A stretch of DNA of 64,000 nucleotides from an uncultured bacterium (GTDB lineage Bacteria > Bacillota_I > Bacilli_A > RFN20 > CAG-826). Shown piece after piece: positions 2,524 through 59,867 of this stretch. The first letter of the stretch is position 1, and the number at the start of each line of letters is the position of its first letter. Under the pieces are notes generated by a model. That model saw only the letters and a list, made by a program, of their open reading frames with translations. It did no database searches and was not told where the DNA came from. Position numbers and translations under genes: made by a program. The stretch covers positions 7,114 to 71,113 of the forward strand of contig CASFZN010000021.1 of assembly GCA_949299195.1 (NCBI GenBank). Direction: 5' to 3'.

Positions 2524-4407
2524 CTATTTCTTATAGATTGCATTAAATTTGCATGATGCAATACATGTATTACATTTAATACACTTATCTTGATCAATAA
2601 CAAATGGCTCTTTACCAACGACTCCATTAATTGCATTAACTGGACATTGTCTAGCACATAAAGAACATTTCTTACATTTTTCAGGATCAATATGGAAACT
2701 GACTAAGGATTTACAAACGCCAGCATCACATTTTTTATCATTAATATGTCTAAGATAGACCTCTTTAAATTTAGTTAAAGTAGAAATAACTGGGTTTGGA
2801 GCGGTTTGACCTAAACCACATAAACTACCTACTTGAATAGATTTAGCTAAGGTTTCTAACTTTTCAATATCTTCAATTGTTCCCTTACCTTCGGTGATTT
2901 TAGTTAAAATTTCTAATAATCTCTTAGTTCCGATACGACATTGTGAACATTTACCACATGATTCATCGCAAATAAATTCAAGATAGAATTTAGCAACATC
3001 AACCATACAGTTATCTTCATCCATAACGATTGCGCCACCACTTCCCATCATTGAACCTTTAGCGATAAGATTATCAAAATCAATTGGAGTATCTAATTCA
3101 TTTAAAGTTAAACATCCACCACTTGGACCACCTGTTTGGATAGCTTGGAATCTCTTATTATTAGGAATTCCCCCACCAATATCATAAACAAGTTCTCTTA
3201 AAGTAGTTCCCATAGGAACTTCAACTAAGCCAACGTTTTTAACCTTACCTCCGAGAGCAAAAACTTTGGTTCCACTACTCTTTTCGGTTCCAATTTTTCT
3301 AAATTCTTCGCCACCAACTCTTAATATATAAGGTATATTAGCTAAAGTTTCGACATTATTAATAATAGTTGGTTTTCCCCATAAACCCTTAACTGCTGGG
3401 AATGGAGGACGTGGACGAGGCATACCTCTTTTACCTTCGATTGAGTTAAGTAATGCAGTTTCTTCTCCACAAACGAAAGCGCCGGCTCCTAAACGAATAT
3501 GAACATCAAAATCAAATCCAGTATTTAAAATATTTTTACCTAATAATCCAACTTCCCTTAATTCTTTAATTGCAGTTTGAAGTCTATTAACAGCGATAGG
3601 ATATTCAGCTCTAACATAGAAATAACCATTTTTAGCACCAATTGCGTAACCGGCAATCATCATACCTTCGATAACGCTAACTGGGTTACCTTCTAAAATA
3701 GATCTATCCATGAAGGCACCTGGATCGCCTTCATCGCCATTACAAACAACATATTTTTCGTCGTTTTGTTGTTCATAAGCAAATTGCCATTTTCTTCCAG
3801 TTGGGAAGCCTCCACCGCCTCTTCCTCTAAGTCCTGAAGTTAAAACCTCACCAATTACTTCTTTTTGAGACATATGAAGAGCTTTAATCAAACCTTTAAA
3901 AGCGTCATAACCAAATGCTTCTTCTAATTTTTCAGGGTTGATTGTGCCACATCCATGTAAAGCGATACGAAGTTGTTTTTTATAGAAAGTAATATCATCT
4001 TGTCTTTCGACCTTTTTATTAACGATTGGATCCAAATAAAGTAAATCTTCAATGCATTTTCCTTCGATGATATCTTCATTAATAATTCTTTCACAGTCCT
4101 TTACTTTTACTGCATGATAAAGTCTATCTTCAGGATAGATTTTAACGAATGGTCCTTGAGAACAGAATCCAAAGCAACCAACAACATTAACTGTAACTTT
4201 ATCTTCTAATTTTTTAGCTTTAATTAATCTTTCAAGTTCATTAATAATCTCTTGAGAATCAGATGATAAACATCCGGTTCCTCCACATACTACAATATGC
4301 CTTTTCCCATCTTTTCCATTAAACTTTTTCTTAAGATTATCACTACATTTAGTAATAGTGGTATTTAATTCTTGCTCAGTTTTAATCTTTTTAATTCCAG
4401 TAGCCAT
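2524..4407 (-). CDS. hydB: NuoF-like NAD(H)/FMN-binding diaphorase subunit (HydB/HndC)
   Basis: SGLRGRGGGGFPTG, NGDEGDPGAFMDR, GAGAFVCGEETAL and ESCGKC motifs. N-terminal thioredoxin-like 2Fe-2S domain and C-terminal 2x[4Fe-4S]. Confidence 0.93.
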   Translation of the reverse strand: MATGIKKIKTEQELNTTITKCSDNLKKKFNGKDGKRHIVVCGGTGCLSSDSQEIINELERLIKAKKLEDKVTVNVVGCFGFCSQGPFVKIYPEDRLYHAVKVKDCERIINEDIIEGKCIEDLLYLDPIVNKKVERQDDITFYKKQLRIALHGCGTINPEKLEEAFGYDAFKGLIKALHMSQKEVIGEVLTSGLRGRGGGGFPTGRKWQFAYEQQNDEKYVVCNGDEGDPGAFMDRSILEGNPVSVIEGMMIAGYAIGAKNGYFYVRAEYPIAVNRLQTAIKELREVGLLGKNILNTGFDFDVHIRLGAGAFVCGEETALLNSIEGKRGMPRPRPPFPAVKGLWGKPTIINNVETLANIPYILRVGGEEFRKIGTEKSSGTKVFALGGKVKNVGLVEVPMGTTLRELVYDIGGGIPNNKRFQAIQTGGPSGGCLTLNELDTPIDFDNLIAKGSMMGSGGAIVMDEDNCMVDVAKFYLEFICDESCGKCSQCRIGTKRLLEILTKITEGKGTIEDIEKLETLAKSIQVGSLCGLGQTAPNPVISTLTKFKEVYLRHINDKKCDAGVCKSLVSFHIDPEKCKKCSLCARQCPVNAINGVVGKEPFVIDQDKCIKCNTCIASCKFNAIYKK

Positions 4408-4409
4408 AA

Positions 4410-4895
4410 CTATACCTCTTTATCTTTTTTACGATATTCTTCAATAATAGTAGGGACTTGTGCTAAGGTGACTTTTGGATATACCTTGCCATTAATACTA
4501 ATAGCAGGAGCAATTCCACAGGCACCAATACATCTTAAAGCATCAAGTGTAAATAACCCATCTTCTGTAGTTTGACCAGGTTTAATCTTTAAGATTTCTG
4601 AGAATTTATCGATGATATTTTGACCGCCCTTAACATAACAGGCAGTTCCTAAACAAACACCGATAACAAACCTTCCTTTAGGAGTTAAACTAAAGAAAGA
4701 ATAGAATGTAACAACCCCATAAATGTCACTTACAGGAACTCCGGTTTCTTTAGAAATAATTTCTTGAACTTCTAAAGGAATATAACCATATTCTTTTTGA
4801 GTTTCTGAAAGAATCAACATTAATGGAGATGGTTCATCCTTATACTTATTGCAGATATTAACGATAATATCTACTGCTTCTTTTCTTAAATGCAT
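4410..4895 (-). CDS. hydC: NuoE-like 2Fe-2S subunit (HydC/HndA)
   Basis: GVVTFYSFF, VCLGTAC and RCIGAC motifs. ATG at 4895 is preferred because a GGAG RBS precedes it. Confidence 0.92.
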   Translation of the reverse strand: MHLRKEAVDIIVNICNKYKDEPSPLMLILSETQKEYGYIPLEVQEIISKETGVPVSDIYGVVTFYSFFSLTPKGRFVIGVCLGTACYVKGGQNIIDKFSEILKIKPGQTTEDGLFTLDALRCIGACGIAPAISINGKVYPKVTLAQVPTIIEEYRKKDKEV

Positions 4896-14621: not shown

Positions 14622-16184
14622 ATGGGAATTAAAAAAGATAACTTAAATTCTTTATCAGAAATAATTAAAGACCAAATAGAAAAATATGAACATAACATTG
14701 ATACAACAAACGTTGGTCAAATTGTTTCTGTTGGAGATTCAATCGTTACCATTTATGGGCTTGATGAAGCGATGTATGGCGAATTAATTAAATTCCCAAA
14801 TAATCAATATGGGCTTGTAATGAATATTGAAGAAAACTCGATTGGTGTCGCACTTTTTTCAAATGATATAACCTTAAAAGAAGGTGATACTTGTACCCGT
14901 ACTGGAAAAGTTGTAAGCGTTCCAGTTGGTGATGCTTTACTAGGAAGAGTCGTCAATGCTTTAGGAGAACCAATCGATGGAAAAGGTGAAATAAAAACTA
15001 GCGAATATAGAGCCACTGAATCCTTAGCTCCTCAAATTATGGACCGACAAAAGGTAAATGAACCTTTAGAGACTGGAATTAAAGCTATTGATTCAATGAT
15101 TCCTATTGGTAAAGGTCAAAGAGAATTAATTATTGGAGACCGTCAAACTGGAAAAACTGCTCTTGCTATCGATACTATTATTAATCAAAAGGGTAAAGAT
15201 GTAATTTGTGTATATTGTTCAATTGGACAAAAGAACTCTTCTTTAGTTCAAATTGTTAATAGATTAAATAAATTCAATGCTCTTTCTTATACTGTAATAG
15301 TTTCAGCAGGAGCAAGTGAAGGAGCACCTTTACAATATCTTGCTCCATATAGCGCGACTTCTATTGCTGAATATTGGATGCATAAGGGTAAAAATGTTCT
15401 TATAGTTTATGATGATTTGTCAAAACACGCAGTCGCTTATAGAACCTTACTTTTATTATTAAGAAGAAGCCCAGGAAGAGAAGCTTATCCTGGTGATATT
15501 TTCTATATCCATTCACGACTTTTAGAAAGATCTTGTAGACTTAATAAGGAATTAGGCGGAGGTTCAATTACTGCTTTACCAATTGTTGAAACTCAAGCTG
15601 GAGATATTTCTAGTTATATTCCTACTAACATCATTTCAATTACAGATGGACAATTATTTTTATCAAGTGAAATGTTTAATGCTGGTCAAAGACCTGCGAT
15701 AGATTCGACACTTTCTGTTTCTCGTGTCGGCAGTAGCGCTCAATATAAAATAATGAAAGATGTTAGTAAAAATTTAAGAATTGAGCTTGCTAATTATAAT
15801 GAAATGTTAGACTTCTCACGTTTTGGAAGTGATCTAGATAAAGCTACTCAAAAAGTTTTATTACATGGAGAAATTCTACTTGAAACCTTAAAACAAAAGC
15901 AATATATGCCACTTTCTTTAGCTCAAGAAGTCGTTGATTTATATGTTGCTCAAGTTGGATTATTAGATGATATTAATGTCGAAAATATTCATAATGTTTT
16001 AAAATTACTTGATAACTCAATCATCTCTAAATCCAATAATTTATATGAAAAAATAAATAAAACTAAAGAATTTACTAATGAAGATAAAAAGCTTGTTGAA
16101 GAACTTCTTTTAACTATTAAATCAAGTTTAAAAGAAGAAATTTCTTCAAAAGATAATGAATTTGATTTCCGATTAAACGAATAA
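14622..16184 (+). CDS. atpA: F0F1 ATP synthase subunit alpha
   Basis: GDRQTGKT Walker A, PGREAYPGDIFYIHSRLLER. Confidence 0.98.
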   Translation: MGIKKDNLNSLSEIIKDQIEKYEHNIDTTNVGQIVSVGDSIVTIYGLDEAMYGELIKFPNNQYGLVMNIEENSIGVALFSNDITLKEGDTCTRTGKVVSVPVGDALLGRVVNALGEPIDGKGEIKTSEYRATESLAPQIMDRQKVNEPLETGIKAIDSMIPIGKGQRELIIGDRQTGKTALAIDTIINQKGKDVICVYCSIGQKNSSLVQIVNRLNKFNALSYTVIVSAGASEGAPLQYLAPYSATSIAEYWMHKGKNVLIVYDDLSKHAVAYRTLLLLLRRSPGREAYPGDIFYIHSRLLERSCRLNKELGGGSITALPIVETQAGDISSYIPTNIISITDGQLFLSSEMFNAGQRPAIDSTLSVSRVGSSAQYKIMKDVSKNLRIELANYNEMLDFSRFGSDLDKATQKVLLHGEILLETLKQKQYMPLSLAQEVVDLYVAQVGLLDDINVENIHNVLKLLDNSIISKSNNLYEKINKTKEFTNEDKKLVEELLLTIKSSLKEEISSKDNEFDFRLNE

Positions 16185-19897: not shown

Positions 19898-19975
19898 TGG
19901 CGTCCATGGGAGGATTTGAACCTCTGACCCCACGCTTAGGAGGCGTGTGCTCTATCCGGACTGAGCTACATGGAC
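19898..19975 (-). tRNA. tRNA-Arg(CCT)
   Basis: 78-nt cloverleaf GTCCATG...CATGGAC-G-CCA with anticodon CCT. Arg identity elements A20 and G73 are present. One A49-C65 mismatch in the T-stem. Confidence 0.93.
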
Positions 19976-29123: not shown

Positions 29124-29669
29124 TTAAACCTTCATGATTTCATCATTCTTTTCTTTTAAAATCTTATCTACCTTTTGAGTAAATTCATCAATTAATTTTT
29201 GAACTTCTGCTTCTTCTAATTTACGGGTGTCTTCAGTATAAGAATCGTCTTTTTTAATAGCTTCGATGGCATCACGTCTGACACTTCTTAAAGCAACTTT
29301 AGCTTCTTCGCCATAATTTTTAGCTTTTTTAGTTAATTCTTTTCTCCTATCTTCAGTTAATGCAGGCATATTTAATCTAATTTGTTTGCCATCAACAATT
29401 GGGTTAATTCCGATATCAGAAGCATTGATTGCAGCAACGATTGATTTAACATCGTTAGAATCAAAAGGAACGATTAAAAGTTGGCGTGGTTCTGGTACTT
29501 TAATTGCTGCAATTTGAGTAACAGGCATCTTATCGCCATAATAATCACAAGTTAAGTTATCAAGTAAAGCAACATTAGCCCTACCAGTTCTTAAAGTATT
29601 TAAAGATGATTCAAGCGAAGCAACGCATTTTTCCATCTTTTCTCTACATTCAGTTAAAATATCAACCAT
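29124..29669 (-). CDS. frr: Ribosome recycling factor
   Basis: LRTGRAN and PALTEDRRKEL motifs. ATG at 29669, just after the pyrH stop. Confidence 0.97.
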   Translation of the reverse strand: MVDILTECREKMEKCVASLESSLNTLRTGRANVALLDNLTCDYYGDKMPVTQIAAIKVPEPRQLLIVPFDSNDVKSIVAAINASDIGINPIVDGKQIRLNMPALTEDRRKELTKKAKNYGEEAKVALRSVRRDAIEAIKKDDSYTEDTRKLEEAEVQKLIDEFTQKVDKILKEKNDEIMKV

Positions 29670-30411: not shown

Positions 30412-30557
30412 TGTGTAAAATTATATCAAATATTTAAATAAATATTAATCTATAAATTATTTTTTATAAACTTTAAAAATCTCGATAATAATCGATACTA
30501 TATCAATTTTTGTGTATTTATTAAAAAATATTTATCTTTAATAAATATTTTATAGTT

Positions 30558-31175
30558 ATGGCAAAAGAGAAAAAATATCCATTTATTATAATTCGATTGC
30601 AAATTTATATGGCCTATATGAAGTATATTTTTATTGTGAGTTTAATTCTGATGTTTGGAGTAGCTAAATATCATGGTTATGGGGCAATCATGATTCATTT
30701 TTATATTATTCCCAACCTCGCTCCGATTTTATTTTTAACTATAAAAATGATTAATATAAGTAATAAATATCGGGAATTTATAGATAAAAAGTAAGCGTTT
30801 AAGATATATTTTTTACCTTTTCTTTTTTTAATTAATGGCATAATCTTTCCGCTTGTTAACAATTATTCTCCAAATGATTTATAGATACTTATAACTCTTA
30901 TTATTTCAATTATTATAGAGATTGCATTAATTCTTATATATATTCTTATGATTTTTAGATATAAAAAACGGATTAAAAATAGACTTGATATTAAATTAAA
31001 TAATAATTTAAATGAGTTTTATGAATTATTTTATAATTTAGTAAATCTTAAAAATAACGATAATCTTGGACTTTATAAATTCTTGTCATTTCATTCTAAC
31101 TTATTTTATATAATTAGAATTTTTACTTTAGTTAATTCCGCATGTGTATTAAATTTAGGATTAGTTATGGAATAG
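30558..31175 (+). pseudogene. Fragmented membrane-protein gene remnant between pyrH and tsf
   Basis: Short hydrophobic ORF pieces (30558-30794, 30948-31175) separated by stops, in very AT-rich DNA and antisense to the flanking operon. Confidence 0.35.
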
Positions 31176-31488
31176 TTTGTTATTTAATTCCTACTGCAGT
31201 TTCTATATATAAATTGATTTTAAAAACTAGAAAGAAATTAAAGTCTCTTTAATCCTTTTAAAAATTTTTCATTATGTAATACCTTACTTTTAATTTCAAT
31301 AATTCCGTTTTTCCACAATACTCACGACTTTTTTAATAAAAGATTTTTCTCTTTTAGGCGAATTTATTGCCGGACTTATAATAATCGCTTTTTATTTTCT
31401 GCCTCTATTTACTTATTTGAGGACCAATCTTTACTTTTAACAATTTAAATAAACCAGATGCTAAAAGTATAAAATTTAAAGACGATAA

Positions 31489-31529
31489 TAAAAAGTCGTA
31501 AGAATTTCGCTTCCTACGACTTTATTTTT
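31489..31529 (-). terminator. Intrinsic terminator after tsf
   Basis: AAAGTCGTA...TACGACTTT hairpin flanked by A/T tracts. Confidence 0.7.
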
Positions 31530-31549
31530 AAGAGTTTAAAGATTAACAA

Positions 31550-39328: not shown

Positions 39329-39961
39329 TTAAAATAATTTAATTTGTTCTACTAATAACTCTTTAACTGGTTTATATGTTTCGCGATAAAAGCCTTTGAT
39401 TATTCCTTTTTCTTTAATGATTTCTAAATGTTCTTTGGTTGGATAACCTTTATGAGATTTAAAATTATAATAAGGATATAACTTATCATATTTTTCCATG
39501 ATATCATCACGGGTTACTTTAGCTAAAATTGAAGCTGCAGCAACATTAATTGATTTTTGATCTCCCTTAGCTAAAGGTAAAACTAAAATGTCATTAAATT
39601 CTTTAAATTCATCTAACTTCATATAGTCAGTAATGATTAAATCTGGTTTAATTGATAGATTTAATAAAGCTTTTTTCATTCCTAATTTAGATGCTTGATA
39701 GATATTGATTTTATCAATAGTTGCCGGAGAAATTTCTACTATTGAATAAGATAAGGCATCTTTAATAATCTCTTTATATGCCTCTTTCCTTTCTTTATCA
39801 CTCATCATTTTAGAGTCTTTTATTTTTTTATTTTGATAGTGAAGTGGAAAAATTACGGCTGCACAAACAACTGGCCCACATAAAGGACCTCTACCAGCTT
39901 CATCACTTCCGGCTATTAATTCATATCCTTTTAAATAATATTCTTTTTCAATATCGTACAT
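39329..39961 (-). CDS. rnhB: Ribonuclease HII
   Basis: GSDEAGRGPLCGPV, DSK, AAASILAKVTRD, HKGYPT. Confidence 0.96.
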   Translation of the reverse strand: MYDIEKEYYLKGYELIAGSDEAGRGPLCGPVVCAAVIFPLHYQNKKIKDSKMMSDKERKEAYKEIIKDALSYSIVEISPATIDKINIYQASKLGMKKALLNLSIKPDLIITDYMKLDEFKEFNDILVLPLAKGDQKSINVAAASILAKVTRDDIMEKYDKLYPYYNFKSHKGYPTKEHLEIIKEKGIIKGFYRETYKPVKELLVEQIKLF

Positions 39962-39970
39962 AAAAATTAA

Positions 39971-40852
39971 TTAATCATTAACTCTTTCAATGGTAGCTTT
40001 TACTATTTTTCCATTTCTAAATTCATTTAAAATTACTTTAATTACTTTTTCACTATTTACTTCGTTATTCTTTTTATATAGTCCTCTTTTTCTTCCAATA
40101 GATTCAATGATTTCTACTATATTTATATCTTTATCATTTGATAAAGATAATTCATATCTAGCATTAAATTCCTTTAAATAGTATTTATAAATAATTTTAA
40201 TTAAGTAATCAAAAACTTCTTCTAAAGGTAAGATATCTTCTTTAATTGTTCCGATAATTGATAGATTTAAAGCTACTTTTTTATCTTCAAATTTAGGTAA
40301 TAAAATACCAGGAGTATCCATAAGTTCGAAGTTTTTATTAACCTTAATCCATCTATTTGATTTAGTAACGCCTGGTTTATTACCAGTTATAGCAATACTT
40401 TTTTTAGCTAATAGATTAATTAAAGTAGATTTTCCAACATTAGGAATTCCAATAACCATCGCTCTAATAGATACGTTTTTAATACCTTTTTTAAGATATT
40501 TTTCTTTTTTTAAATCTATAAACTTATCTATATATTTAAGGATTTCGTTAATAACTTTATTATTAGTTAAATCTACTAAAACACATTCATCTTCACTATT
40601 TTCTTTTAATTTCTTTTGCCATAATTTTGATTCTTTTTCATCACTTAAATCGCTTTTTGCTAATAAAAATAACTTCTTTTTATCTTTAACTATCTCCATT
40701 AAATATGGATTTATTGAAGATCTAGGGGCTCTAGAATCTAATAAAATAATGACAAAATCGACTAGTTTTAACTTTTCTTTAATTTCGTTACTAGCCTTTT
40801 TCATATGTCCAGGGAACCGGTGTATATTTTTTGTTTTTTGATTAGTTTCCAT
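39971..40852 (-). CDS. rbgA: Ribosome biogenesis GTPase RbgA/YlqF
   Basis: FPGHMKKA, GIPNVGKSTLIN, PGVTK and DTPGIL motifs. Codon 12 is CGG where the family has Trp. Confidence 0.96.
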   Translation of the reverse strand: METNQKTKNIHRFPGHMKKASNEIKEKLKLVDFVIILLDSRAPRSSINPYLMEIVKDKKKLFLLAKSDLSDEKESKLWQKKLKENSEDECVLVDLTNNKVINEILKYIDKFIDLKKEKYLKKGIKNVSIRAMVIGIPNVGKSTLINLLAKKSIAITGNKPGVTKSNRWIKVNKNFELMDTPGILLPKFEDKKVALNLSIIGTIKEDILPLEEVFDYLIKIIYKYYLKEFNARYELSLSNDKDINIVEIIESIGRKRGLYKKNNEVNSEKVIKVILNEFRNGKIVKATIERVND

Positions 40853-41065
40853 TTGTTTTTTCTTTCTAAAATCTACCTCTAAATAATATCATGATTCAAA
40901 ATTAATAAATAGAGGAACTTAACCTTATATTCCTTACTATTTTACGGCATCTATCGATGTTTTTTTAATTTTAATGCTAACTATGTATTAGTAAGAAATA
41001 ATATTAATTCTAATAGTTTTAATCCTAATATAGGAAATATTAAATCGAGATTTATCTAATAAAAT

Positions 41066-41081
41066 TTTTCCACGTAGAAAC
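41066..41081. promoter_or_regulatory. parS-like palindrome, degenerate copy
   Basis: TTTTCCACGTAGAAAC, 14/16 match to copy 1, intergenic. Confidence 0.4.
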
Positions 41082-41147
41082 TTTAAAACTTACTAAGATT
41101 AAATATTTTAAAGAAAAAACCAGTCACAGGGACTGGTGTAATTTTTC

Positions 41148-41498
41148 TTACTTAAGAATTTGTTTAATTCTTGCTGATTTACCACTTCTTTGTCTGAGGT
41201 AGTTGATTTTATTTCTTCTAACTTTACCTCTTCTGACAACTTCAATTTTTGCAACGTTTGGTGAATGTAAAGGGAAAATTCTTTCAACACCAATGCCAGA
41301 TGAAATTTTTCTAACGGTGAATGTTTCAGCAATTCCTCCGCCTCTTCTAGCCATAACAACGCCTTCGAAGACTTGGATTCTTGATTTACCACCTTCGGTA
41401 ATTCTAACTGAAACTCTGACAGTATCTCCTGATGAGAATTCAGGAAGATCGTTTCTTAATTGTGAAGCAGTAACTTCTTTAACTAAATTGTTATTCAT
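41148..41498 (-). CDS. rplS: 50S ribosomal protein L19
   Basis: [34 protein letters not shown]. Confidence 0.98.
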
Positions 41499-41535
41499 GT
41501 TTACTTCTCCTTTTATATAGTTGTTTCTTTCTCTT

Positions 41536-44375: not shown

Positions 44376-45069
44376 TTAAGAGTTAAAATCGATATTTAAA
44401 CTATCAATCCATTCAATAATCAAGCTTTCGTTTGCTCTTGAAGAAAACCTATGATTTCCTATCCAATTGGCTTCTGGAGCTAATTCAATTTTACTCTCAG
44501 TAGAATATTGAGAAGCCGAACTTGTTCCAAAAGGAATTATATTTTTACCTTCAAAATCATTATTTCTTAAAAACTCATCTACAACCCGCGAAGGTTCTCT
44601 CCACCAAACAGGAAATCCTAATAATATATTTTCCTCTTCATCAAATCCCTCAAACGAAGTATTGACGAGTTCAACAACTCTATTTGGATCCTCGTGTTCT
44701 TCGAAAACTCTGCTATTTTCATTATTATAATTTAAATCTTCGCTTGTATAAGGATCTACTGGCTCTAATCCATATAAAGGAGAACCGATATAATTTCCAA
44801 TGATATTTGCCACCCTTTCTGTATTTTCTGTAGCAGGAAAAATAGACGATAATCGCATCATTTTCTCCACTTGGTTCTTCAACAGGTGGGTCTTCTTCTG
44901 GTGGTTCTTCAATAGTTGGTTCCTATTCTTCTGGAGGATTTTCCACCGGAGGCTCAATAGGAACTTCTTGCAAAGGATCGTTTTCTGGAGGAATTTCTAC
45001 TTGAGAATTAGAACAGCCAACTAAAATTAATAAAGATAATAAAGTTAATACTTTAATTGTTCTTTTCAT
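44376..45069 (-). pseudogene. Lipoprotein flavodoxin, disrupted
   Basis: ATG at 45069 reads MKRTIKVLTLLSLLILVGC (lipobox) and a Pro/Glu linker. There is an in-frame TAG at 44925-44923 and a one-base frameshift near 44835 at the IVYFS/ATENT motif. The C-terminal part reads GFPVWW...PFGTSSAS. Confidence 0.8.
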
Positions 45070-45961: not shown

Positions 45962-46439
45962 CTATTTATTATCTCCTTTTAAATAAGAAATATGTTCCTC
46001 TTCACTTTTATTAAATAATCCTTCAACATAAGTGATATTTGGATCTACCTTATTAAAATCATTTAATGAATTGACCATATATTGATGATCATTAGTGTAA
46101 CTATTTGCAAAAAATATTACCCTTCCTTTATATCCTTTTATTTTTGTTATAAAGGTAGCGATAACTAAAGGAAATGTATACCACCAAATAGGGAAAAATA
46201 ATAAGATTTCATCGTTATTTTCTTTAATTTTGTTATAGTCTATATCATCCTTACTTTTCAGGATATAAACACTTCTCATATTCTTCTTTTGCCTCAATAT
46301 ATGCACAAGTATTATAATCACTTGAATAGGGCACTTTTTTATCAATTCGATCGATATCATAATTAAATTCCTTATTAATAGCTTCAACTAAATGTTTAGT
46401 GTTATTAGAATATGTAAAATAAATAATTGCTCTTTTTAT
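45962..46439 (-). pseudogene. Flavodoxin, frameshifted
   Basis: An ATA start after an AGGAG RBS reads IKRAIIYFTYSNNTKHLVE...YPE. A one-base frameshift near 46257 leads into KDDIDY...FFPIWWYT. Confidence 0.75.
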
Positions 46440-54929: not shown

Positions 54930-55037
54930 GCCCAGCGACTTGCTATTCTTGCCTTGCGGCTACCTTCGCCATTGCAGTGCTTAACTTCTCTGTTCGGGAT
55001 GGGAAGAGGTGTGTCCACTGTATCATCGTCACCAGAC
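54930..55037 (-). rRNA. rrf: 5S rRNA (short form, about 107 nt)
   Basis: TCTGGTGACGAT...CCCATCCCGAACAGAGAAGTTAAG...GTCGCTGGG. Confidence 0.93.
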
Positions 55038-55160
55038 TCAATATTTATTTGAGAGACTACATTTTAATCAAAGTGTTCTCTGAAAACAAGATATTTATTT
55101 TATTTTGTTCTTTCTTAACCCTAATAATTTATTTTTTTAGATCTTTTAGTAAAATCTTAG

Positions 55161-58043
<2,883 letters not shown>

Positions 58044-58334
58044 TCATAAATTTAATTAGGCTTTTGTTAGTTTTTGTGTCTTAACAAATGTTTAACTTAA
58101 GTTCGCATTTTTTAAAACTCAATGAATTTTAATTTTTGCTTCTTAACAGAAAGAACATGTTATAAATATCTTGTTTTCAAAGAACAGTTTTGATTAAGAG
58201 AATGCTATTCTCTCAAAACTAGATAGATCTACTTTTTTGAAAGTGAACTGAATAATACCTAGATTTAATAAATAGGTTATAAAAAATTTGTACAATAATG
58301 ATTCCGTTTTTGGAATCAAAGTCTTTCTCCATTG

Positions 58335-59867
<1,533 letters not shown>

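What the first reader, a model, noticed from the sequence alone, without database searches (positions are those of the whole stretch)
40817..40819. Probable non-standard genetic code: CGG read as tryptophan
Seen: rbgA reads AAT ATA CAC CGG TTC CCT GGA CAT ATG (IH-CGG-FPGHM). Established: the RbgA/YlqF N-terminal motif is IxW[FY]PGHM with a highly conserved Trp. My manual scan of the 52 recognisable genes found in-frame CGG only here and at 44588-44586, where the flavodoxin reads WWREPS-CGG-VVDEF. As I recall, homologs often have W there (for example WWGIAAWPV), but this site is weaker because the gene is a pseudogene and some flavodoxins have Arg at it. Conserved Arg positions use other codons (CGA in atpA HSRLLER at 15516, AGG in frr RTGRAN). 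Inference: CGG is reassigned from Arg to Trp. A computational genetic-code screen (Shulgina & Eddy, Codetta) reported CGG->Trp in an uncultured Bacilli clade, so this genome may belong to that clade or be a new instance. Table-11 annotation would mistranslate it.
Basis: partly seen in the sequence, partly recalled or inferred. Interest (0 to 1): 0.9.

Follow-up and report, generated by a model that had tools for sequence, protein, structure and literature searches.

The report
CGG codon read as tryptophan
This small, AT-rich gut bacterium almost certainly reads the arginine codon CGG as tryptophan, a rare bacterial code change already published for a clade of uncultured Bacilli to which it most likely belongs, so standard annotation mistranslates several dozen of its tryptophans as arginine.

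Summary
Observation confirmed; interpretation supported; the phenomenon is already published.

- **The site.** Codon 12 of rbgA (window 40819-40817, minus strand) is CGG. It sits where 25 of 27 relatives have TGG-Trp, 2 have Tyr and none has Arg.
- **Genome-wide test.** The 1.17 Mb, about 28% GC genome has 83 in-frame CGG codons, 2.4 per 10,000. Aligned to two relatives, they behave like TGG, not like Arg codons: W at 30 of 50 and at 13 of 28 sites. Trp beats Arg by 36 and 80 log10 likelihood units.
- **The tRNA.** A tRNA(CCG) lies 2.9 kb upstream of the window. It has G73, A1:U72 and U20 in place of the arginine element A20. No tRNA(UCG) was found, and CGA still aligns to Arg.
- **Spread.** The same Trp-type tRNA(CCG) was recovered from 36 of 60 genomes of the genus. 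Sister genera carry a canonical tRNA-Arg(CCG).
- **Not a miscall.** Contigs from three other studies keep the CGG.
- **Known case.** This matches the CGG-to-Trp reassignment of an RFN20 Bacilli clade, later named Onthovivens (Shulgina & Eddy 2021).
- **Open.** Genus names are hidden here, so membership could not be checked. There is no proteomic proof.

The parts
40817..40819 (-). CGG codon 12 of rbgA, read as Trp (IH-W-FPGHM)
   Evidence: Sequence. The column is W (TGG) in 25 of 27 relatives, Y in 2, R in 0, and W in 4 of 4 PDB alignments shown. The codon is unchanged in whole-stretch contigs of three DNA runs from three studies. Its presumed decoder, tRNA(CCG), lies outside the window at G000:C21:4140-4214 (minus strand), 2.9 kb before window base 1.
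39971..40852 (-). rbgA (ribosome biogenesis GTPase A / YlqF), 293 aa
   Evidence: ORF. Pfam MMR_HSR1, E 9.6e-18. PDB 1puj B. subtilis YlqF, E 6.9e-65 over residues 10-289.
44586..44588 (-). CGG codon in a Flavodoxin_4 pseudogene (VWWREPS-CGG-VVDEF)
   Evidence: The aligned column is W in 19 of 22 homologs, R in 2 (P0001 and P0005, suspected CGG read by table 11) and K in 1. Three distant PDB flavodoxins have R, R, T. This site is weak evidence because the gene is broken.
44376..45069 (-). Broken Flavodoxin_4 lipoprotein gene: signal peptide and linker in another frame, one in-frame stop, one frameshift near VYFS|ATENTE
   Evidence: Three-frame translation. Pfam PF12682, E 3.2e-22 for residues 37-186. 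Intact 220-aa homolog P0001, 91% identical.
15516..15518 (+).
   Evidence: Genome-wide, CGA aligns to R at 146 of 307 (G028) and 248 of 414 (G008) sites, like AGA.
29580..29582 (-).
   Evidence: AGG aligns to R at 116 of 279 (G028) and 214 of 406 (G008) sites.
19898..19975 (-). tRNA-Arg(CCT), a normal arginine tRNA with A20 (D-loop ...GGATA), for contrast with the tRNA(CCG)
   Evidence: ARAGORN. Rfam tRNA, 61.5 bits.

Best explanation
In this genome CGG no longer codes for arginine. It is read as tryptophan by a dedicated tRNA with anticodon CCG.

That tRNA has lost the main arginine identity element (A20). It carries the tryptophan elements G73 and A1:U72, so the cell's single TrpRS, not ArgRS, is expected to charge it.

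CGU, CGC and CGA stay arginine through tRNA-Arg(ACG), presumably with inosine at position 34. Inosine does not pair with G, and no tRNA(UCG) was found, so CGG is free to carry its own meaning.

AT-biased mutation kept CGG very rare. It now appears at about 3% of Trp positions, exchanging freely with TGG by a T/C transition that is synonymous under the new code.

Shown here: the codon-column statistics, the tRNA features, the tRNA set and the spread across the genus. Inferred: charging by TrpRS, inosine modification, the order of evolutionary events, and membership of the published Onthovivens/RFN20 clade.
For: **1. Codon columns.** There are 83 CGG codons in 1055 selected ORFs.
- Against G028 (another family; it has tRNA-Arg(UCG)), 28 sites align: W 13, Y 4, F 3, V 2, R 2, M 1, I 1, S 1, H 1.
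- Against G008 (same genus), 50 sites align: TGG 30, CGG 6, CGA 2, CGT 1, other 11.
- TGG codons give W at 561 of 994 and 1080 of 1402 sites. AGA gives R at 3050 of 5760 and 4655 of 6992.
- log10 likelihoods: vs G028, W -24.7, Y -42.1, R -60.8; vs G008, W -38.7, Y -101.4, R -118.7.
- Both R hits in G028 lie in spurious ORFs: one is antisense to feoA, the other overlaps tRNA genes.
- With ORFs of 150 aa or more and sites beyond codon 10, 55 sites remain. G008: 41 aligned, 28 TGG, 3 CGG, 1 CGT. G028: 23 aligned, 11 W, 0 R.

**2. Deep conservation.** PDB homologs have W at the CGG column in these alignments:
- RbgA, 4 of 4 shown.
- ProRS PG-W-KF, 3 of 4, with Y in 1.
- GH13 RTPMQ-W, 5 of 5 shown, from two proteins.
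- GlgB GDFNN-W-D, 5 of 5 shown, variants of one protein.

**3. The tRNA(CCG).**
- It is a 75-nt canonical cloverleaf scoring 61.5 bits on Rfam, with a 5-bp anticodon stem.
- It has A1:U72, G73 and D-loop AAUUGGUA, which gives U20.
- The three other Arg tRNAs all have GGAUA, which gives A20.
- ARAGORN finds 42 tRNAs and no UCG anticodon.

**4. Reciprocal test.** G008's own CGG codons align to W at 19 of 36 sites in G000 and 9 of 20 in G028.

**5. Spread.**
- I recovered 37 tRNA(CCG) genes from 36 of the 60 genomes of the genus.
- All 37 have G73 and all lack A20. Position 1:72 is A:U in 27, G:U in 3 and G:C in 7.
- The 11 tRNA(CCG) genes recovered from other genera of the family are all Arg-type with A20.

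**6. Origin.**
- In an ML tree of 134 tRNAs, all 37 tRNA(CCG) group with the two tRNA-Trp(CCA).
- They sit apart from the 95 others, which include the outgroup tRNA-Arg(CCG).
- UFBoot is 78 for this split, and 90 for the split with 35 of the 37.

**7. Other checks.**
- One TrpRS gene is present.
- The rbgA CGG is kept in contigs of three DNA runs from three studies, each about 98.5% identical over 1601 bases.
Against: - No protein-level data exist for this or, in the papers I searched, for any CGG-to-Trp clade. Shulgina & Eddy themselves say only experiment can settle the translation and any ambiguity.
- The tRNA keeps C35 and G36, which are arginine identity elements as I recall, and lacks the A36 of tRNA-Trp. 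Some charging by ArgRS, or poor charging by TrpRS, cannot be excluded.
- A few sites do not look like Trp. In the PSP1-domain protein, site 111 aligns to CGT-Arg in G008 and His in G028. In the filtered set, 9 of 41 sites (G008) and 12 of 23 (G028) align to residues other than W or R. TGG codons show a similar scatter.
- Three distant PDB flavodoxins have R, R and T at the flavodoxin column.
- The ORF set is a crude longest-ORF call, not a gene prediction.
- Only two reference genomes were used, and they are kin.
Confidence: 0.93

Rival explanations
1. CGG is decoded ambiguously. The tRNA(CCG) is charged partly by ArgRS (through C35 and G36) and partly by TrpRS, so CGG sites yield a mix of Arg and Trp.
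For: - The tRNA keeps C35 and G36.
- One filtered site aligns to CGT-Arg in G008.
- Shulgina & Eddy state that ambiguity cannot be seen computationally.
Against: - A20, the main ArgRS element by the criteria quoted, is absent in all 37 tRNA(CCG) genes recovered from the genus.
- CGG sits at strictly conserved Trp positions of essential proteins, where frequent Arg would be costly.
- No filtered site aligns to Arg in the standard-code genome G028: 0 of 23.
Confidence: 0.05
2. CGG still means Arg. The CGG codons at Trp columns are real W-to-R substitutions, or TGG-to-CGG assembly errors.
For: TGG to CGG is a single transition, and any one site could be a missense change or an error.
Against: - Trp is favoured over Arg by 36 and 80 log10 likelihood units.
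- Six sites share CGG between G000 and G008.
- Three independently assembled strains keep CGG in rbgA.
- The only tRNA that can read CGG lacks A20.
Confidence: 0.01
3. CGG is reassigned to another residue (Tyr, Phe or Gln), or is unassigned as reported for Mycoplasma capricolum.
For: Y and F are the next most frequent aligned residues. CGG-to-Gln is known in Peptacetobacter, and unassigned CGG in M. capricolum.
Against: - Tyr is 17 and 63 log10 units worse than Trp, and Gln is not among the top five.
- The Y/F share equals that of ordinary TGG codons.
- A well-formed tRNA(CCG) exists, and 55 CGG codons lie in ORFs of 150 aa or more. This argues against an unassigned codon.
Confidence: 0.01

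Closest known systems
CGG-to-Trp reassignment in a clade of uncultivated Bacilli of GTDB order RFN20 (Shulgina & Eddy 2021, PMC8629427; called Onthovivens in PMC13092985 and bioRxiv 10.64898/2026.05.03.722492)
   Same: - Same codon and same new meaning.
- Low GC: 0.28 here against the 0.26-0.38 reported.
- CGG under 6 per 10,000: 2.4 here.
- AGA is the dominant Arg codon.
- tRNA(UCG) is missing.
- The tRNA(CCG) has G73 and no A20.
- The host is an uncultured Bacilli lineage from animal guts.
   Different: Nothing tested differs. I could not confirm the genus name because genome handles are anonymous, and the paper's figure supplement with the clade's genomes is not held.
- A Trp-type tRNA(CCG) was recovered from 36 of 60 species-level genomes of the genus.
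- Sister genera carry a canonical tRNA-Arg(CCG).
- The tRNA tree groups the CCG tRNAs with tRNA-Trp.
CGG-to-Trp in Anaerococcus (Clostridia), same paper
   Same: Same codon change, a Trp-like tRNA(CCG), low GC and a rare codon.
   Different: It is a different class of Bacillota. The authors found no supporting conserved positions there because CGG is extremely rare, whereas several are shown here.
Absconditabacteria code (CGA and CGG to Trp, UGA to Gly)
   Same: CGG is read as Trp.
   Different: Here CGA aligns to Arg at 146 of 307 and 248 of 414 sites, and no tRNA(UCA) or tRNA(UCG) was found.
AGG-to-Met in Enterosoma (family CAG-288, order RFN20)
   Same: A sense-codon change of an arginine codon in the same published order.
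   Different: - A different codon is affected: AGG here aligns to Arg, and tRNA(CCT) has A20.
- The Met tRNA there was inferred to derive from an Arg tRNA. The tRNA(CCG) here groups with tRNA-Trp.

Membership tests
CGG-to-Trp bacterial code (RFN20/Onthovivens and Anaerococcus type) | CGG codons align to conserved Trp columns | tested here: met
   W at 13 of 28 (G028) and 30 of 50 (G008) aligned sites. Trp is the best of 20 residues by at least 17 log10 units. PDB checks.
CGG-to-Trp bacterial code (RFN20/Onthovivens and Anaerococcus type) | tRNA(CCG) with G73 and without A20; A/G1:U72 counts as support (criteria of Shulgina & Eddy) | tested here: met
   G73, U20, A1:U72; 61.5-bit tRNA.
CGG-to-Trp bacterial code (RFN20/Onthovivens and Anaerococcus type) | No tRNA(UCG); CGA, CGU and CGC remain Arg | tested here: met
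   42 tRNAs and no UCG anticodon, in a 95%-complete assembly. CGA, CGT and CGC align mainly to R.
CGG-to-Trp bacterial code (RFN20/Onthovivens and Anaerococcus type) | Low GC and CGG under 6 per 10,000 codons | tested here: met
   Contig GC 0.23-0.30. CGG 2.4 per 10,000 in ORFs. The paper counted Pfam-aligned codons, so the figures are not strictly the same measure.
CGG-to-Trp bacterial code (RFN20/Onthovivens and Anaerococcus type) | Trp actually inserted at CGG (protein evidence) | not testable with these tools
   No proteomic data. The one RNA run laid did not cover the site.
Genus Candidatus Onthovivens (GTDB order RFN20) | Taxonomic placement of this genome in that genus | tested here: inconclusive
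- The nearest named records are 'uncultured Bacilli bacterium' MAGs.
- The stretch recurs in chicken-gut metagenome runs, and the type species is from chicken faeces by its name.
- The trait is limited to one genus of the family in the genomes sampled.
Absconditabacteria code | CGA also read as Trp | tested here: not met
   CGA aligns to R at 48% and 60% of sites, like AGA.
Peptacetobacter code (CGG to Gln) | CGG aligns to Gln columns | tested here: not met
   Q is not among the top five likelihoods and is absent from the top aligned residues.

The most novel reading that the evidence does not exclude
The 60-species genus that holds this genome is not the published Onthovivens clade but a further, independent Bacilli lineage that reassigned CGG to Trp. 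That would add another independent origin of the same sense-codon change in bacteria. A lesser variant: the very diverse acceptor stems of the tRNA(CCG) genes in the genus, and the two different copies in G015, reflect repeated recruitment of tRNA-Trp copies.
Probability: 0.1. Interest if true: 0.6.

Novelty: already known. Interest (0 to 1): 0.35.

Why it matters
Sense-codon reassignments in bacteria are very rare; only a handful of clades are reported in the papers read here.

**For this genome the consequence is practical.**
- Table-11 annotation puts Arg at about 55-80 positions that are almost certainly Trp. Among them are invariant Trp residues of RbgA, ProRS, GlgB and a GH13 glucosidase.
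- Public protein collections may already hold such mistranslations. Homologs P0001 and P0005 show R at otherwise invariant W columns, though I did not see their DNA.

- The Trp-type tRNA(CCG) runs through a 60-species genus, while neighbouring genera keep a canonical tRNA-Arg(CCG).
- The tRNA most likely descends from tRNA-Trp.

**A route to direct proof.** The organism recurs in chicken-gut metagenomes from several studies, so metaproteomics of such samples could give the protein evidence that is still missing.

Tried and rejected
- **In-situ conversion of tRNA-Arg(CCG).** I considered that the tRNA(CCG) arose from the ancestral tRNA-Arg(CCG) at its own locus.
  - For: its acceptor stem shares 5 of 7 pairs with an outgroup tRNA-Arg(CCG). 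It lies about 530 bp from tRNA-Leu(CAA), and in two outgroup loci tRNA-Arg(CCG) abuts tRNA-Leu(CAA).
  - Against: tblastx found no protein-coding synteny with any of the 30 family-search loci, only with close genus members. The tRNA tree groups all 37 CCG tRNAs with tRNA-Trp.
  - Pairwise identity alone was indecisive for G000's own tRNA, at 0.67-0.68 to several classes. Trp(CCA) was nearest for 18 of 37.
- **TrpRS comparison.** I wanted genus-specific changes in TrpRS.
- **RNA evidence.** RNA run X18 covered only 11 of 30 bins and not the CGG site.
- **Short-ORF sites.** Apparent Arg-like CGG sites in short ORFs proved spurious or non-coding: antisense to rpsU (S21) and to feoA, upstream of the likely start of a 675-aa ORF, or inside rRNA.
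- **Gilroy et al. 2021 (PMC8035907).** Searched for Onthovivens; no hit in the 300,000 characters held.
- **Material I could not see.** The figure supplement of Shulgina & Eddy that lists the RFN20 genomes, and Table S3 of PMC13092985, may bear on the genus question.
- **What I saw of each paper.** For PMC8629427, 10.64898/2026.04.02.715157, PMC13092985, 10.64898/2026.05.03.722492, PMC11676251 and PMC12281948 I saw only passages returned by 'find'.
- **Recalled only.** That NCBI now lists a table for this code, and the roles of C35, G36 and A36 in ArgRS and TrpRS recognition, are recalled and come from no call.
- **No experimental confirmation in print.** This rests on searches only.
Full report
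**The observation.** On the minus strand, window 40819-40799 reads CGG TTC CCT GGA CAT ATG. This is codon 12 onward of a 293-aa ORF at 39971-40852. The ORF is a YlqF/RbgA-type GTPase: Pfam MMR_HSR1, and best PDB match B. subtilis YlqF, E 6.9e-65 over residues 10-289.

I searched the protein in 41 genomes (G000 plus 40 relatives); all had a match, and 29 relatives' loci were fetched. In 27 of these the [FY]PGHM motif is present; the other 2 are cut by contig ends. The preceding codon is TGG in 25, TAT in 2 and never an Arg codon. All four PDB alignments shown, including human MTG1, have W there.

**Is it more than a missense change?** The window lies in a 1,174,610-base assembly of 22 contigs, 95% complete, with contig GC of 0.23-0.30. 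I called 1055 non-overlapping ORFs of 60 aa or more, covering 89% of the genome. CGG occurs 83 times in 347,498 codons, or 2.4 per 10,000. TGG occurs 1798 times and AGA 8300 times.

I then fetched two relatives and aligned every ORF to them with tblastn. G028 is a complete genome of another family in the order; it carries tRNA-Arg(UCG) and so reads CGG in the standard way. G008 is a same-genus genome of which I fetched 1.13 Mb.

| G000 codon | vs G028 | vs G008 |
|---|---|---|
| CGG | 28 aligned: W 13, Y 4, F 3, V 2, R 2, M 1, I 1, S 1, H 1 | 50 aligned: TGG 30, CGG 6, CGA 2, CGT 1, other 11 |
| TGG | W at 561 of 994 | W at 1080 of 1402 |
| AGA | R at 3050 of 5760 | R at 4655 of 6992 |
| CGA | R at 146 of 307 | R at 248 of 414 |

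I used the empirical substitution profiles of all other codons as models for the 20 amino acids. The log10 likelihoods of the CGG-aligned residues are:
- vs G028: W -24.7, Y -42.1, R -60.8.
- vs G008: W -38.7, Y -101.4, R -118.7.

This holds even with G008's own CGG codons counted as R.

The two R hits in G028 fall in spurious ORFs. One is antisense to feoA and the other overlaps tRNA genes. Other short-ORF sites are antisense to rpsU, lie inside the rRNA operon, or lie upstream of a likely start codon.

Restricting to ORFs of 150 aa or more and sites beyond codon 10 leaves 55 sites:
- G008: 41 aligned, of which 28 TGG, 3 CGG, 1 CGT and 9 other.
- G028: 23 aligned, of which 11 W and no R.

In this set CGG is 55 of 1714 presumed Trp codons, or 3.2%.

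**Named examples.** CGG sits in FeoB, GlgB (three sites), ProRS, a class-V aminotransferase, TsaD, LigA, a GH13 glucosidase, MalQ, PFK and YidC. PDB homologs have W at these CGG columns:
- ProRS TPG-W-KF in 3 of 4 alignments shown, with Y in T. thermophilus.
- GH13 RTPMQ-W in 5 of 5 shown, from two proteins.
- GlgB GDFNN-W-D in 5 of 5 shown, all variants of one protein.

**The decoder.** ARAGORN finds 42 tRNAs (39 in a first run with other settings). Four are labelled Arg: ACG, TCT, CCT and CCG. None has anticodon UCG, and there is one tRNA-Trp(CCA).

The tRNA(CCG) lies at G000:C21:4140-4214 on the minus strand, 2.9 kb before the window. It is 75 nt and scores 61.5 bits on Rfam's tRNA model, with a 5-bp anticodon stem. 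It has A1:U72, G73 and the D-loop AAUUGGUA, which gives U20. The three ordinary Arg tRNAs all have ...GGAUA, which gives A20.

Shulgina & Eddy classified a tRNA as a provisional Trp acceptor if it had G73 and not A20, with A/G1:U72 as support (passage). This tRNA meets all three. The genome has one TrpRS gene.

**How far the trait reaches.** G008's own 58 CGG codons align to W at 19 of 36 sites in G000 (R at 6, not checked at DNA level but likely G000's own CGG) and at 9 of 20 in G028.

A pattern for the anticodon-to-T-arm part of a tRNA(CCG) matched in 45 of the genus's 60 genomes, chance hits included. From the loci I held, ARAGORN recovered 37 tRNA(CCG) genes in 36 genomes. All 37 have G73 and a GGUA D-loop without A20. 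Position 1:72 is A:U in 27, G:U in 3 and G:C in 7. The other 24 genomes, many of them incomplete, gave no tRNA(CCG) with this pattern; that is not proof of absence.

I ran the pattern with a narrower spacing (13-14 instead of 13-18 bases) over 151 genomes of 48 genera of the family. The 30 loci returned held 11 tRNA(CCG) genes from other genera. All 11 have GGAUA (A20); ten are 77 nt with G73, and one is 75 nt with A73. Many further matches of that type were listed but not inspected.

In an ML tree of 134 class-I tRNAs, all 37 CCG tRNAs and the two tRNA-Trp(CCA) form one side of a split, with UFBoot 78. The split with 35 of the 37 has UFBoot 90. The 134 are these 37, the tRNAs of G000, G008 and G028 up to 80 nt, and the 11 outgroup tRNA-Arg(CCG). 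The outgroup tRNA-Arg(CCG) sit among the other tRNAs. Support is moderate and the sequences are short. Still, the result favours descent from tRNA-Trp with an A36-to-G change, as Shulgina & Eddy proposed for these cases, over remodelling of the old tRNA-Arg(CCG).

**Not an assembly artefact.** The 1601-base stretch around the site is held by runs from nine studies, many labelled chicken gut metagenome. I laid four runs on it. In the three DNA runs (X5, X10, X13, from three studies) one contig spans the whole stretch with 20-24 differences. None falls at 40817-40819; the nearest are 40722 and 40826. The RNA run did not cover the site.

**The flavodoxin site.** The 193-aa ORF at 44376-44957 is the 3' part of a Flavodoxin_4 lipoprotein gene. 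The signal peptide and linker stand in another frame from 45069, with an in-frame stop and a frameshift. Among 22 homologs with a residue at the CGG column, 19 have W. Two have R (P0001, 91% identical, and P0005), and one has K.

P0001 also has R at another nearly invariant W column. This suggests, without DNA in hand, that public protein sets hold CGG codons read by table 11. Three distant PDB flavodoxins have R, R and T at the column.

**What is known.**
- Shulgina & Eddy (PMC8629427, passages) reported CGG-to-Trp in a clade of uncultivated Bacilli of GTDB order RFN20, in Anaerococcus and, together with CGA, in Absconditabacteria.
- The features they list are GC 0.26-0.38, CGG under 6 per 10,000, dominant AGA, no tRNA(UCG) and a Trp-like tRNA(CCG).
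- Later papers name the Bacilli clade Onthovivens (PMC13092985; bioRxiv 10.64898/2026.05.03.722492).

Every feature I could test is met. I could not test the genus name. The chicken-gut occurrence fits a genus whose type species is named merdipullorum, but this is only circumstantial.

**Verdict.** CGG is read as Trp in this genome (confidence 0.93, computational evidence only). It is most likely one more species of the already published clade, so I file it as already known. The residual possibilities are partial ambiguity of decoding (about 0.05) and an independent lineage (about 0.1 for the taxonomic question).

Noticed in passing
window 44376-45069 (-): A Flavodoxin_4 lipoprotein gene is broken by an in-frame stop in the linker and a frameshift at the FMN-loop motif (VYFS|ATENTE). 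An intact 220-aa homolog that is 91% identical exists in public data (P0001).
   Followed up: partly
proteins P0001 and P0005: These public protein records show R at otherwise nearly invariant W columns (for example VWRREPSRV). They are probably CGG codons of related genomes translated with table 11. Their DNA was not seen.
   Followed up: no
window 45962-46387 (-): A second Flavodoxin_4 ORF (141 aa) matches only profile positions 64-142 of 155, so it looks truncated at the N-terminus.
   Followed up: no
window 30412-31549: A 1.1-kb spacer lies between a pyrH-like and a tsf-like ORF (names recalled from their sequences, not tested). It holds two small plus-strand ORFs (78 and 75 aa), each with a CGG codon (30771, 30969). 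Whether they are coding is unknown, and neither has a match in G008 or G028.
   Followed up: partly
window 54930-59867 (-): A complete rRNA operon (5S, 23S, 16S). Three short plus-strand ORFs inside it carry CGG and are spurious.
   Followed up: yes
G000:C21:3527-4214 (outside the window); loci L250, L252: The Trp-type tRNA(CCG) lies about 530 bp upstream of tRNA-Leu(CAA), with a small membrane-protein ORF between them. In two genomes of another genus of the family, a canonical tRNA-Arg(CCG) directly abuts tRNA-Leu(CAA). No protein-coding synteny was found, so positional homology is unproven.
   Followed up: partly
loci L211 and L212 (G015): One genus member carries two quite different tRNA(CCG) genes. 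Acceptor stems of tRNA(CCG) differ widely across the genus (AUGCCCA, GGGAGCU, AGGGGCU, GGGUUUU, AGGAAGU and others).
   Followed up: partly
G000:C18:276842-277660 (-), site 111: In a PSP1-domain protein the CGG site aligns to CGT-Arg in G008 and CAT-His in G028. It is the only site in the filtered set that aligns to a non-CGG Arg codon.
   Followed up: no
window 39900-41500: Near-identical sequence (about 98.5%) occurs in metagenome runs from nine studies, many labelled chicken gut. An RNA run held contigs over the rplS-like ORF at 41148-41498 only.
   Followed up: partly
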